A stretch of DNA of 64,000 bases from Escherichia coli. Lineage in GTDB: Bacteria; Pseudomonadota; Gammaproteobacteria; Enterobacterales; Enterobacteriaceae. How positions within the stretch are numbered: position 1 is the first letter of the stretch; every line of letters begins with the position of its first letter. This document shows positions 53,410 to 56,400 of the stretch, piece by piece. The DNA lies in assembly GCF_003018255.1 (NCBI RefSeq), contig NZ_CP027440.1; one strand, given 5' to 3'. Made by a program: the position numbers.

Positions 53410-56400
53410 TAACCAGGATAATTAGCGAATATCTCAATGCCAGGGGCGTGGCGAGGTGCAAGAGTGTGTATTACGTTTAAATCACATTATCTTGCAAAGG
53501 GATTGGTTATGAACTCACTACGTTATTTTGATTTTGGTGCTGCACGCCCCGTTTTGTTATTAATTGCCCGTATCGCCGTGGTCTTAATTTTCATTATTTT
53601 TGGTTTTCCCAAAATGATGGGCTTTGACGGTACGGTCCAATATATGGCCTCGCTGGGCGCGCCGATGCCGATGCTGGCAGCGATTATTGCGGTAGTTATG
53701 GAAGTGCCCGCCGCGATATTAATCGTGCTTGGCTTTTTCACCCGTCCGCTGGCGGTGCTGTTTATTTTCTACACGCTGGGTACGGCGGTGATTGGTCACC
53801 ATTACTGGGATATGACCGGCGATGCGGTTGGGCCAAATATGATTAATTTCTGGAAGAATGTCAGTATCGCTGGCGCATTCCTGCTGTTGGCAATTACCGG
53901 GCCGGGGGCGATTTCTCTCGATCGGCGTTAGGAAAGATGCCGGATGCGGCGTGAACGCCTTATCCTGCCTACCGTTCCAACACCAATTGTAGGCCTGATA
54001 AGACGCGGCAAGCGTCGCATCAGGCATCGTGCGCCGAGTGCCGGATGCGGTGTGAACGCCTTATCCGGCATTTTATAAATTACAGTAACGCAACCCGCAA
54101 CGACATCTCTGAAGTTGTTGATTCCCCTGGTGCAAGCGCAATGAGGTCACCACCTTCCGGGCGATGATGGTCATCTGGCGCATGGCTCATCGGTTCCAGA
54201 CAGAAGAAATCAAACGCATATCCTTTATCAAACGCCGGGTCGGAAACAAAGATGAAATAACACGGTGCAGGTGGCGTCGTTTCTATGATGATGGCATAAC
54301 CCTCCTGCGGCTGCTCGATGCGGGCCTGACCATTCCATCCGGCAAAACCATTGTTCACCCACTGGCGCGGCAACGGCGCGAGCTGGTTAAAATCCAATTC
54401 TTGCGGTAGCTGCTCGCAAAACTCACCCGCCAGCCACTGCTCCCGCTCCAGCCAGTAACCGCTCGCCTGTGCCTGAATCCGCGTTTGCGGCGACAACGGA
54501 AAATAAGGATGCCAGCCGGTACCAAATGGCAGCGTCTCTGCCCCTTGATTGGTGACAGAGAGTGTCACCGTCAGCGTATCCGCCGTTAAATGAAACGTCT
54601 GGCTTACCCGATAGTGATAAACACCGCTGCGATGTTCATACACCAGACACAAGATATCATCATTGCGCGAGACACATTGCCACTGCCCCAGCCAGCCGTC
54701 GCCGTGCAGATAGTGCGCATCCCACTCAACATTCGGTTGCAGTTGATACTCACGCCCCTGCCAGACAAAACGGTTGCCGCTCACCCGGTTTGCAAATGGC
54801 ACCAGCGGAAAACAAGAGGCATCGGTTGCCACACCGTTTTTTTTACCAGGACGTAAGAGCGGCGTCGTATCGCGCCAGAAGCCTTCGATTACGCCGCCCT
54901 GGTCAGAAACGCCCAGCTTTAGCGACCCGTGGGATAAGGTATAGATGGTCATCCGCTAACTCCTTAATCCGGGAAGTTAATCACAACTTTCCCGCATTTG
55001 CCGCTTGCCATCAGTGCATAAGCATCTCCCGCCTGTTCCAGCGAGAAGCGGTGGGTAATGGCGTTACGCGGCCACAGTTTCCAGTCCGTTAAATCGTGGG
55101 CGCATTTTTCCATATGGAACAGACTGGTCACCCAGGAGCCGATAATCCGCCGTTGATGGTGCATCAGGTCGGCGCTAACCTCGAACTCGACTTTTCCGGT
55201 TTCACCAATGTAAACCACGCGTCCCCAGTCAGCGGTGGATTGCAGTGCCAGTAAGCGACCTGCGGCATTACCGGAACAATCAAGCGCAACATCCGCGCCG
55301 CCGTGAGTGAGTTCGGCGATTATCTGCGGCAGACCTTCGGTGGTCGCTAAATAGCCGTGATCCATCACTCCTAACTGTTTCGCCATCGCCAGACGTTCCG
55401 GCAGCATATCAACGCCGATGATCCTTTTTGCACCGCGACCTTTCGCCAGCATCATCGCCATCATGCCGACCGGCCCCAGACCGACCACCAGTACGTTATC
55501 ACTGCCGGAAACTTCGCCGCGCAAAATCCCTTCATACGCTGTACCAACGCCGCAACTGATAAACGCACCATCTTCGTAACTCAGTGCATCCGGCAGGAGG
55601 ATCAGATCTTTTTCTTCCGCCAGCAGATATTCGGCATGACCGCCGTCACGCTGCCAGCCGTAAGCCGCTTTTCCTTCGCCAGTACAAGAGATAGGAAAGC
55701 CGCGACGGCAGTTCGGGCAAAAACCACAGCCAGAAATGTGATACACCAGCACACGGTCGCCCTCTTTAAAATGGCGGCAGCCTTGCCCCATCGCCACAAT
55801 CTGCCCGCACGGTTCATGACCGTTGATAAATCCCTGGTATAACGGTTTATCGGGTGCCGCTGCCGTGGCACGGTGTTGATGATAGATATAGTGGACATCG
55901 CTTCCGCAAATCCCGGAGGATTTCATTTTGATCAGTACCTGGTTAATCCCCGGCGTCGGCACCGCAACTTCCCGCAGATCGACGGTCGAATTTCCTGGTA
56001 AATAAGCTGCCAGCATCGTTTTCATAAATCCCTCATTAACAATACGATTAATTTTCATCCCTGCCGCACCCGCGCCAGGGGCGTTAAGGTTTAGCGTTTC
56101 GCTTTACTGCTACGCTGAGTCAGCAAGATATTCGCCAGCACCGCCACCACGATGATGACGCCGCGCACCACCTGCTGGAAAAAGGAGTTAATCCCGAGCA
56201 GCACCAGACCGTTACCGATTAGCGTAATCACCAGTACGCCAAGCAGCGTACCGAACAACGAGCCGCGACCACCGGAAAGCGCCGTACCGCCAACCACGAC
56301 CGCGGCGATGACGTCAAACTCCAGACCGTTTGCGGCACCTGCGTTACCGGAACCGAGGCGCGCCGCCAACAAAATGCCGGTCACCGCCGCTAATAATCCC

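What the first reader, a model, noticed from the sequence alone, without database searches (positions are those of the whole stretch)
53938..54072. REP/BIME clusters at four intergenic sites
Triple REP between yphA and yphB (53938-54072), double REP between iscR and trmJ (42652-42738), REP pair at the sseB/pepB junction (35447-35546, second unit overlapping the pepB stop) and a single REP-like unit after xseA (4437-4469). They are ordinary for E. coli but mark operon boundaries; the unit at 4437 sits exactly at the accessory-block junction.
Basis: partly seen in the sequence, partly recalled or inferred. Interest (0 to 1): 0.25.

Follow-up and report, generated by a model that had tools for sequence, protein, structure and literature searches.

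The report
Ordinary E. coli REP/BIME repeats
The four sites are genuine copies of E. coli's commonest small intergenic repeat (REP/BIME hairpins) sitting just after gene ends; they are ordinary, but each one differs between E. coli strains through small deletions or changes in copy number.

Summary
A consensus scan finds eight REP units in the 64-kb window, all at the four sites named and nowhere else.

- **yphA/yphB (53938-54071):** y-z2-y, a BIME-2. Its z2-y part scores above Rfam's gathering threshold for naRNA4, a family built on a REP doublet.
- **iscR/trmJ (42652-42738):** one y-z2 pair. Both units have lost the GTAG tetranucleotide.
- **sseB/pepB (35456-35547):** a BIME-1 (z1, 35-nt L linker, y). 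A 24-bp deletion between 10-bp direct repeats has halved the y unit and fused it to the last pepB codons.
- **After xseA (4432-4468):** a divergent, single-copy REP-like hairpin. Its GTAG supplies the xseA stop codon (TAG).

All four sites vary among 5,426 complete E. coli genomes:
- yphA/yphB: about 90% carry a single y; the window's form occurs in 3 genomes.
- iscR/trmJ: 1, 2 or 3 pairs in 91-bp steps, or an unrelated repeat.
- sseB/pepB: the window's deletion is in about 8%.
- xseA: the unit occurs only with the ratA-like/sinI/sinH island, in about 18-30%.

E. albertii carries a multi-unit BIME at yphA/yphB, so the common single-y form is probably a deletion product. This is all known REP/BIME behaviour: low interest, already known.

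The parts
53938..53972 (-). Unit A: y-type REP. CTAC lies on the + strand at 53969-53972, so GTAG reads on the - strand. One stem mutation (CCGG>CCTG). It starts 6 nt after the yphA stop (53929-53931).
   Evidence: 1 mismatch to the y consensus, 0 of 100 shuffles matched. E = 3e-6, 22 bits; hairpin -14.7 kcal/mol; coordinates.
53973..53988 (.). 16-nt linker between the GTAG-proximal ends of units A and B. It forms the loop when A and B pair into one long hairpin.
   Evidence: sequence CGTTCCAACACCAATT. (the A+B long hairpin in the MFE fold).
53989..54026 (+). Unit B: long-Z REP, 38 nt (z2 in the Ton-Hoang 2012 naming). GTAG is intact and the hairpin has the AA/GC internal mismatch.
   Evidence: E = 3e-5, 19 bits.: -21.8 kcal/mol; part of the Rfam naRNA4 match.
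54027..54038 (.). 12-nt short linker between units B and C.
   Evidence: TCGTGCGCCGAG. It aligns to the linker of the Rfam naRNA4 model.
54039..54071 (-). Unit C: y-type REP without GTAG; the + strand ends ...CCGGCATTTT instead of ...CCGGCCTAC. It ends 8 nt before the yphB stop (54080-54082). It is orthologous to the single y unit found at this site in most E. coli.
   Evidence: E = 3e-5; alignment to K-12, O157, U14A and SC418. B+C (53992-54070, - strand) score 72.7 bits against RF02564, above the gathering score of 59.5.
42652..42684 (-). Unit D: degenerate y-type REP. GTAG is replaced by CTGG and the outer stem is weakened. It lies about 176 nt upstream of the iscR start codon.
   Evidence: E = 2e-4, 17 bits.: -11.6 kcal/mol; 34 bits to the y half of RF02564.
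42701..42738 (+). Unit E: long-Z REP with GCAG in place of GTAG (K-12 has GTAG here). It ends 7 nt before the trmJ stop (42746-42748).
   Evidence: E = 1e-4.: -21.8 kcal/mol; alignment to K-12.
35456..35485 (-). Unit F: short-Z REP, 30 nt (z1 in the Ton-Hoang naming). It matches the consensus perfectly and GTAG is intact. It lies 35 nt upstream of the annotated sseB start.
   Evidence: 0 mismatches, 0 of 100 shuffles matched. E = 1e-5.: -12.9 kcal/mol.
35486..35520 (.). 35-nt L linker of a BIME-1. It holds a 1-mismatch match to the IHF consensus WATCAANNNNTTR at 35493-35505.
   Evidence: IHF consensus scan; weak match to Rfam ES036/CssrF at 35478-35520, 24.3 bits, below the gathering score of 37.6; aligned to the K-12 L linker.
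35521..35547 (+). Unit G: the 5' half of a y REP (GTAG, left arm, loop), fused to the last pepB codons and stop (35539-35541). The 3' arm was lost in a 24-bp deletion between two copies of GTTTACGCCG. There are also two substitutions (GG>AA). It does not fold.
   Evidence: alignment to K-12, B2 and O157, which have the full y unit. E = 0.07.: -3.4 kcal/mol; the PepB C-terminus is unchanged (...NLLTA*).
4432..4468 (+). Unit H: a divergent REP-like hairpin with a y-type outer stem and a long-Z-type centre. Its GTAG (4432-4435) contains the xseA stop TAG (4433-4435). It is the first sequence of the segment that island-less strains lack. It ends 35 nt from the stop of the ratA-like gene (4504-4506).
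   Evidence: E = 1e-3, 15 bits.: -13.9 kcal/mol; 26 bits to RF02564; single copy, median 1 place per genome..

Best explanation
These are ordinary members of the E. coli REP (palindromic unit) family, arranged as BIMEs.

**What is at each site**
- yphA/yphB: a BIME-2 of y-z2-y between the convergent yphA and yphB ends.
- iscR/trmJ: a single BIME-2 pair (y-z2) downstream of trmJ and upstream of the iscR promoter.
- sseB/pepB: a BIME-1 (z1, L linker, y) downstream of pepB, whose y unit has been half-deleted.
- After xseA: a lone, divergent REP-like hairpin that abuts the xseA stop codon.

**Shown here**
- Sequence membership in the family.
- Hairpin potential.
- Multi-copy status: direct for the yphA/yphB and sseB/pepB units; weaker for the iscR/trmJ pair (median 3 places per genome); not met for the xseA unit, which is single-copy.
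- Position 0-8 nt from stop codons.
- Strain-to-strain variation by deletion between short direct repeats and by gain or loss of whole 91- or 101-bp repeat periods.

**Inferred from published work on the family, not tested here**
- When transcribed as 3' UTRs, the hairpins block 3'->5' exonucleases and so stabilise the upstream mRNA.
- They cause partial Rho-dependent termination.
- Because they lie within 15 nt of the stop codon, they can stall terminating ribosomes and lower the yield of the upstream protein.
- At the DNA level, BIME-1 binds IHF and BIME-2 binds gyrase.
- Units with an intact GTAG and bulge (A, B, F, perhaps H) remain possible single-strand substrates of the TnpA-REP (RAYT) enzyme. 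Units C, D, E and G are immobile relics.
For: **Family membership**
- Consensus matches far beyond chance.
- The curated Rfam REP-doublet model RF02564 scores above gathering at 53992-54070, and at 19-35 bits (half of the model) on the other units.

**Structure**
- Seven of eight units fold with the expected internal 2x2 mismatch, at -11.6 to -21.8 kcal/mol.
- Whole clusters fold far better than shuffles: z = -7.1 and -6.1 at yphA/yphB, -3.7 at iscR/trmJ, -3.4 at sseB/pepB.

**Copy number**
- Queries containing the units hit many places per genome: median 23, 12 and 3.

**Architecture**
- It fits the published definitions (PMC3333891; PMC8266576): alternating orientation, a long L linker with an IHF-like site in the z1+y element, and short linkers with tandem copy-number variation in the z2+y elements.
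- Copy-number series at iscR/trmJ: K-12 has 3 pairs, O145:H28 has 2, the window has 1, with a 91-bp period.

**Position**
- Distances to stop codons are 0-8 nt.

**Published function**
- 3'-UTR stabiliser and partial Rho-dependent terminator (bioRxiv 10.64898/2026.03.23.713779).
- Ribosome stalling when the REP lies 15 nt or less from the stop (Liang et al. 2015, as summarised in PMC12306157).
Against: - No expression, termination, IHF, gyrase or TnpA-REP data exist for these particular copies, so every functional statement is extrapolated from other loci. The 2026 preprint stresses that REP effects depend on context.
- Three units lack GTAG and one cannot fold, so part of what is here is decayed sequence with possibly no function.
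- Unit H is weakly scored (15 bits, E = 1e-3) and single-copy. It is REP-like rather than a clean y or Z member.
- The IHF-site match has one mismatch and differs from the K-12 linker.
Confidence: 0.92

Rival explanations
1. The hairpins are ordinary Rho-independent terminators of yphA, yphB, trmJ, pepB and xseA that merely resemble REPs.
For: All of them lie directly after stop codons. Unit C is followed on the + strand by ATTTTATAAA. The 2026 preprint notes that a few K-12 REPs coincide with intrinsic terminators.
Against: The terminator scan called none of the eight units. Only unit C has any T-rich tail. The sequences match a dispersed multi-copy family consensus, which independent terminators would not.
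Confidence: 0.05
2. The yphA/yphB cluster is a gene for a nucleoid-associated non-coding RNA of the naRNA4 type, which works with HU to organise the chromosome.
For: 53992-54070 (- strand) scores 72.7 bits against Rfam RF02564 naRNA4, above the gathering score of 59.5.
Against: The Rfam family is itself one y-z2 doublet of REP325, so any good BIME-2 doublet will match it. About 90% of E. coli genomes lack the z2 unit at this site. The 2026 preprint reports that REP325/naRNA4 does not measurably compact the nucleoid and that REP-REP contacts are not seen.
Confidence: 0.03
3. The extra y-z2 doublet at yphA/yphB is a recent insertion of a mobile REP doublet (REPIN) by the RAYT/TnpA-REP enzyme into a site that originally held one y unit.
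For: - There is a presence/absence polymorphism of exactly one 101-bp period.
- A and B fold into one long REPIN-like hairpin.
- Units A and B keep GTAG.
- The window's exact arrangement is in only 3 of 5,426 genomes.
Against: - The E. albertii type strain carries y-z2 plus a rearranged third part at the same site, as do B2 E. coli. A multi-unit BIME here is therefore old or was exchanged between species.
- The window and B2 copies of y-linker-z2 differ at about 6% of positions, more than the flanking yphA end (100% identical). That argues against a recent event.
- The single-y form lacks CTAC. It is exactly what a deletion between the two ATCCGGC repeats of the B2/E. albertii form would leave.
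Confidence: 0.1
4. The REP after xseA caused the gain or loss of the ratA-like/sinI/sinH island, acting as a recombination or integration site.
For: The unit is the first base after xseA and is present only in island-bearing genomes.
Against: - There is no REP at the other island end and no direct or inverted repeat of 9 nt or more between the two junctions.
- The island encodes no integrase or transposase.
- The xseA 3' end and yfgJ are themselves strongly diverged between island-plus and island-less haplotypes: 74% falling to 43% identity over the last 200 nt of xseA, and about 82% in yfgJ. This points to old alternative haplotypes rather than a clean REP-mediated event.
Confidence: 0.05

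Closest known systems
E. coli REP / palindromic units of types y, z1, z2 (Gilson, Bachellier, Hofnung; Ton-Hoang et al. 2012, PMC3333891)
   Same: - 30-38-nt imperfect palindromes with the GCC(G/T)GAT...ATC(C/A)GGC arms and an internal AA/GC mismatch.
- GTAG at one end in five of the eight units.
- Extragenic, multi-copy, and located at gene 3' ends.
   Different: - Units C, D and E have lost GTAG.
- Unit G is a non-folding half.
- Unit H is a single-copy hybrid with a y-like outer stem and a long-Z-like centre.
- Units G and H overlap stop codons, so they are not strictly extragenic.

Naming note: papers disagree on which Z is '1' and which is '2'. I follow Ton-Hoang 2012 (z1 short, z2 long).
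BIME-2 (y + long Z, short linkers, tandem copies; gyrase-binding class)
   Same: - yphA/yphB (y-16 nt-z2-12 nt-y) and iscR/trmJ (y-16 nt-z2) have the alternating orientation and short linkers.
- Copy number varies between strains in whole periods of 101 bp and 91 bp.
   Different: The window carries only 1.5 copies and 1 copy. K-12 has 3 copies at iscR/trmJ and half a copy (one y) at yphA/yphB. Gyrase binding was not tested.
BIME-1 / RIP-RIB element (short Z + L linker with IHF site + y)
   Same: z1, a 35-nt L linker with an IHF-like motif, and y, as a single copy between pepB and sseB. It is orthologous to the intact K-12 element.
   Different: In the window (and about 8% of genomes) the y unit lost its 3' arm through a 24-bp deletion. 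The linker differs from K-12 at several positions. IHF binding was not tested.
REP325 / naRNA4 (Rfam RF02564)
   Same: Units C+B on the - strand match the full 77-nt model above the gathering score.
   Different: REP325 has 12 units between yjdM and yjdN; this locus has 3. No evidence exists of a discrete RNA product here. The nucleoid role of naRNA4 is itself disputed (2026 preprint).
REPIN / RAYT (TnpA-REP) system
   Same: Inverted REP doublets that can fold as one long hairpin. GTAG is the guide tetranucleotide that TnpA-REP requires.
   Different: No RAYT gene lies in the window (in E. coli it sits at yafL-fhiA). Half of the units lack GTAG. The variation seen is explained by deletions between direct repeats rather than by new insertions.

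Membership tests
E. coli REP (y / z1 / z2 palindromic units) | Sequence match to one of the three family consensus sequences | tested here: met
   - 1 and 0 mismatches; 0 of 100 shuffles matched.
- seven units at E = 3e-6 to 1e-3, and unit G at E = 0.07.
- No other site in the 64 kb scored.
- The consensus was taken from memory and cross-checked with Rfam RF02564.
E. coli REP (y / z1 / z2 palindromic units) | Imperfect palindrome forming a stem-loop with the conserved AA/GC internal mismatch | tested here: met
   units A-F and H fold at -11.6 to -21.8 kcal/mol with the 2x2 internal loop. Unit G does not fold (-3.4).
E. coli REP (y / z1 / z2 palindromic units) | Conserved GTAG tetranucleotide 5' of the palindrome (required by TnpA-REP; PMC8266576) | tested here: inconclusive
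   GTAG is present in A, B, F, G and H. It is absent in C (AAAT), D (CTGG) and E (GCAG). So 5 of 8 meet it.
E. coli REP (y / z1 / z2 palindromic units) | High copy number dispersed over the genome | tested here: met
   - 140,478 places in 5,425 genomes, median 23 per genome.
- median 12 per genome.
- median 3 per genome.
- Not met for unit H: one search gives a median of 1 place per genome.
E. coli REP (y / z1 / z2 palindromic units) | Extragenic location, usually in a 3' UTR | tested here: met
   all units lie downstream of stop codons. Unit H shares 3 nt with the xseA stop, and unit G shares 9 nt with the end of pepB.
E. coli REP (y / z1 / z2 palindromic units) | Binding and cleavage by TnpA-REP (RAYT) on single-stranded DNA | not testable with these tools
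   This needs an in vitro cleavage/strand-transfer assay. The RAYT gene is outside the window.
BIME-2 | y and long Z in alternating orientation with short linkers; tandem copies whose number varies between strains | tested here: met
   - linkers of 16 and 12 nt.
- 1, 2 or 3 pairs at iscR/trmJ in 91-bp steps.
- 0.5 versus 1.5 copies at yphA/yphB.
BIME-1 (RIP/RIB) | Short Z and y separated by the conserved long L linker carrying an IHF site; single copy per locus | tested here: inconclusive
   - z1, a 35-nt L linker and y are present, but the y unit is truncated.
- one-mismatch IHF consensus.
- the L linker weakly matches RF02751, below the gathering score.
- IHF binding was not tested.
Rfam RF02564 naRNA4 | Score at or above the curated gathering threshold (59.5 bits) | tested here: met
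   72.7 bits at 53992-54070 (-). The other sites score 19.5-34.8 bits, below the threshold. Expression and HU binding were not tested.
Rho-independent terminator | GC-rich hairpin immediately followed by a U tract | tested here: not met
   none of the eight units was called. Only unit C has a T-rich tail.

The most novel reading that the evidence does not exclude
The REP after xseA may be kept hard against the stop codon for a reason.

In four diverged island haplotypes the xseA stop lies inside the REP's 5' arm, yet it is a different codon each time:
- TAG from GTAG, in the window, B2 and O145:H28;
- TAA from GATAAG, in 2017C-4173W12 and SC418;
- TGA from CCTGATA, in ST131 U14A.

This could mean selection keeps a hairpin within ribosome reach of the xseA stop, tuning the yield of the exonuclease VII large subunit by REP-coupled ribosome stalling. 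About two-thirds to four-fifths of E. coli genomes lost that control when the island haplotype was replaced.
Probability: 0.12. Interest if true: 0.3.

Novelty: already known. Interest (0 to 1): 0.12.

Why it matters
It matters little beyond annotation. REP/BIME elements, their position at gene 3' ends, their decay, and their copy-number variation between strains have been described since the 1980s-1990s and were reviewed again in 2012-2026.

The practical value is threefold:
- the four spacers can be labelled correctly;
- the Rfam naRNA4 hit should be read as a REP doublet, not as a separate gene;
- the four sites are small, natural allelic series (0.5/1.5 BIME at yphA/yphB; 1/2/3 pairs or a different repeat at iscR/trmJ; intact or half y at pepB; REP-plus-island or neither at xseA). 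These could be used to test the recent proposal that REPs tune 3'-UTR behaviour without changing coding sequence.

Tried and rejected
- **First regex scan.** A fuzzy regular expression for REP head and tail missed units A and D and picked up one false site (54313-54343, 4 substitutions). I replaced it with nhmmer.
- **Z consensus with a fixed loop.** It found nothing at 3 mismatches or fewer, because the loop length differs by one base. nhmmer recovered the units.
- **K-12 REP annotation.** I looked for REP 'repeat_region' features in the K-12 RefSeq record. None are listed in this copy, so membership could not be read off an annotation.
- **First reading of the K-12 yphA-yphB spacer.** I first took the 47-bp spacer to have no REP. 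The alignment showed that it holds one y unit.
- **Intrinsic-terminator reading.** Rejected.
- **REP as the island's recombination site.** Rejected: no repeats at the two junctions and no second REP.
- **Source strain.** Searching for the strain gave only a 99.0% best match over the first 24 kb. The window is a mosaic relative to every genome compared, so phylogroup-based polarity could not be used.
- **Outgroup scan.** It returned only E. albertii plus one contig labelled Citrobacter MAG, which looks like E. coli. Polarity at yphA/yphB therefore rests on a single outgroup.
- **Liang et al. 2015.** A paper search for it did not find it directly. I cite it through PMC12306157.
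Full report
**Context**

The window is E. coli chromosome from guaA to yphG. ORFs and the RefSeq annotation of two genomes give this gene order: guaA, guaB, xseA, a ratA-like 2,684-aa adhesin, sinI, sinH, yfgJ, der ... sseA, sseB, pepB, the isc operon, iscR, trmJ, suhB ... the hca genes, yphA, yphB-G. The two genomes were K-12 MG1655 (locus L001) and JNE112863 (L002).

No genome in the 5,426-genome collection matches the whole window.
- The best match over the first 24 kb is 99.0%.
- A 1-kb tile comparison shows a mosaic. Positions 33-50 kb are identical to JNE112863.
- Positions 4-8 kb and 18-33 kb are closest to a B2 strain, ATCC 11775.

Yes.
- The y consensus matches 53939-53972 with one mismatch.
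- The short-Z consensus matches 35457-35485 exactly.
- Neither match occurred in any of 100 dinucleotide-preserving shuffles.
- nhmmer with the three consensus sequences finds eight units, all at the four sites named. Nothing else in the 64 kb scores below E = 1, apart from the same palindromes read on the other strand.

I supplied the consensus sequences from memory, so I looked for independent checks.
- Rfam's curated naRNA4 model (RF02564) is one y-plus-long-Z doublet of REP325. It scores 72.7 bits at 53992-54070 on the - strand, above its gathering score of 59.5.
- The same model matches its y or Z half to each of the other units at 19.5-34.8 bits.
- BLAST queries containing the units hit many loci per genome, with medians of 23, 12 and 3. 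This is the signature of a dispersed repeat.
- Seven of the eight units fold into the expected hairpin with the internal AA/GC mismatch, at -11.6 to -21.8 kcal/mol.
- The clusters fold far better than shuffled sequence, with z down to -7.1.

**Anatomy** (coordinates)

I use the naming of Ton-Hoang et al. 2012 (PMC3333891): z1 is the short Z, z2 the long one; BIME-1 is z1+L+y; BIME-2 is z2+y. Papers differ on which Z is '1', so I also give lengths.

*yphA/yphB*
- The layout runs from the yphA stop (53929-53931) through a 6-nt spacer to unit A. It continues with a 16-nt linker, unit B, a 12-nt linker and unit C, then an 8-nt spacer before the yphB stop (54080-54082).
- Unit A is a y unit with GTAG on the - strand and one stem mutation.
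- Unit B is z2, 38 nt, with GTAG on the + strand.
- Unit C is a y unit with no GTAG.
- This is 1.5 copies of a BIME-2 shared by two convergent 3' UTRs.

*iscR/trmJ*
- Unit D is a degenerate y with CTGG in place of GTAG. It is followed by a 16-nt linker and then unit E.
- Unit E is z2 with GCAG in place of GTAG. A 7-nt spacer separates it from the trmJ stop (42746-42748).
- The pair lies upstream of the iscR promoter region.

*sseB/pepB*
- Unit F is z1, 30 nt, a perfect consensus match.
- It is followed by a 35-nt L linker, then unit G.
- Unit G is only the 5' half of a y unit and runs into the last pepB codons and stop (35539-35541).
- The L linker has a one-mismatch IHF consensus and a weak match to Rfam ES036/CssrF.
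- This is a BIME-1.

*After xseA*
- Unit H is at 4432-4468, not 4437-4469.
- Its GTAG (4432-4435) includes the xseA stop TAG.
- It has a y-type outer stem and a long-Z-type centre.
- It scores weakly (15 bits) and is single-copy. 'REP-like' is the right label.

I searched each junction against 5,426 complete E. coli genomes. I then aligned the junctions from eight fetched loci.

*yphA/yphB*

| Form | Genomes |
|---|---|
| 601-bp window form | 3 (H1-H3) |
| 612-bp B2 form | about 470 |
| Single y unit (K-12, O157, ST131, SC418) | about 4,900 |

- The single-y form differs from the window by exactly one 101-bp period.
- The E. albertii type strain has the B2 form.
- The B2/E. albertii form has ATCCGGC both in the 3' arm of the first y and at its far end. 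Deleting the 112 bp between these copies yields exactly the single y, including its lack of CTAC.
- I therefore read the common form as a deletion product of an old multi-unit BIME.
- The origin of the window's rare third unit is unresolved.

*iscR/trmJ*
- In a 60-row sample spread across the ranking, about half of the genomes have one pair, as the window does.
- About 12% have two pairs and about 10% have three (K-12), in 91-bp steps.
- About 25% (O157, O55, O111 and several ETEC) have an unrelated 157-nt GC-rich palindromic repeat instead.

*sseB/pepB*
- About 92% of genomes have the intact BIME-1.
- The window form (about 8%) arose by a 24-bp deletion between two copies of GTTTACGCCG. One copy is the loop and inner stem of the y unit. 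The other is the last pepB codons plus the stop.
- PepB is unchanged.

*xseA*
- 927 of 5,231 genomes carry xseA + REP + the ratA-like 3' end in the window's form.
- 1,654 genomes carry at least 80% of the first 24 kb, island included.
- Island-less K-12 and O157 have xseA overlapping yfgJ, with no REP.
- In diverged island alleles the REP persists in decayed form, and the xseA stop is always inside its 5' arm: TAG, TAA or TGA.
- No repeats link the two island junctions.
- The xseA 3' end and yfgJ are themselves strongly diverged between the two haplotype classes.

**How it most likely works**

Shown here: identity, structure, placement and the modes of variation.

Inferred from the literature on other copies:
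- REP hairpins in 3' UTRs stabilise upstream mRNA and act as partial Rho-dependent terminators. REPs between convergent genes go with higher expression of both genes (bioRxiv 10.64898/2026.03.23.713779).
- REPs within 15 nt of a stop codon stall ribosomes and reduce translation (Liang et al. 2015, via PMC12306157). Four of the five stop-proximal gene ends here meet that distance with a foldable hairpin. The fifth, pepB, abuts unit G, which cannot fold.
- GTAG and the bulge are needed for TnpA-REP cleavage (PMC8266576). Units C, D, E and G are therefore immobile relics.
- None of the units looks like an intrinsic terminator.

**Verdict**

Everything seen is textbook REP/BIME behaviour: decay of GTAG, deletions between short repeats, whole-period copy-number change, replacement by another repeat, and variation between strains. 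[quoted passage not shown] 1997. Novelty: already known. Interest: low.

Noticed in passing
window 4504-15918 (island), 4260-4435 (xseA 3' end), about 16095-16310 (yfgJ): An 11.7-kb ratA-like (2,684 aa)/sinI/sinH block lies between the convergent xseA and yfgJ. It has no mobility genes and no flanking repeats. Against K-12, the xseA 3' end drops to 74% and then 43% identity, and yfgJ to about 82%. This suggests two old alternative haplotypes rather than a simple insertion.
   Followed up: partly
L004 (O157 Sakai) 11610-11909; the same type appears in rows H240-H254: In about a quarter of E. coli genomes the iscR-trmJ spacer has no REPs. It carries instead an unrelated 157-nt GC-rich palindromic repeat (…CCCTCACCCTAACCCTCTCCCCGAAGGGGCGAGGGG…), which from memory looks boxC-like. 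The family was not verified.
   Followed up: no
L003 (ATCC 11775) 1119-1149; L005 (U14A) 43972-44002: The two B2 strains examined lack hcaR-hcaEFCBD, which the window has. They carry a degenerate y-type REP in the hcaT-yphA spacer at the deletion site.
   Followed up: no
L006 (O145:H28 RM13516) 7081-7179: This island allele carries a complete BIME-1 (y + z1) between the ratA-like gene and sinI. It is absent from the window's island.
   Followed up: no
window 36823-36880 (pepB-iscX spacer): The spacer length varies: 58 bp in the window and B2, 177 bp in K-12, O157 and SC418, and 244 bp in O145:H28 and 2017C-4173W12. No REP was detected there in any strain. The nature of the extra sequence was not examined.
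   Followed up: no
window 1-64000 versus L002/L003: The window is a recombination mosaic. Positions 33-50 kb are 100% identical to JNE112863. Positions 1-33 kb are 92-99.9% identical to that genome and often closer to B2 ATCC 11775. No collection genome exceeds 99.0% over the first 24 kb.
   Followed up: partly
window 34341-34645 (+), 34001-34209 (+), 41878-41987 (-), 21087-21178 (-): Rfam matches above gathering: ryfA, IS128 RNA, the iscRS stability element and sroE. The annotated timP small toxin ORF lies within ryfA (34487-34612 in L002).
   Followed up: no
window 35478-35520 (-): The BIME-1 L linker weakly matches Rfam ES036/CssrF (24.3 bits, gathering score 37.6). This hints that the sRNA family was defined on a BIME-1 linker.
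   Followed up: no
L010 (DXKH01000132.1, labelled Citrobacter sp. MAG): The 5.6-kb contig carries a yphA-yphB junction identical to the ST131-type E. coli sequence, including the GGATGTGGCG variant of U14A. It is probably an E. coli contig binned into a Citrobacter MAG.
   Followed up: no
window 4504-12558 versus L002 4507-12558: The ratA-like gene differs by one codon in length between the window (2,684 aa) and JNE112863 (2,683 aa). Its size also varies among island alleles, for example 6.4 kb in O145:H28 and an internal stop in 2017C-4173W12.
   Followed up: no
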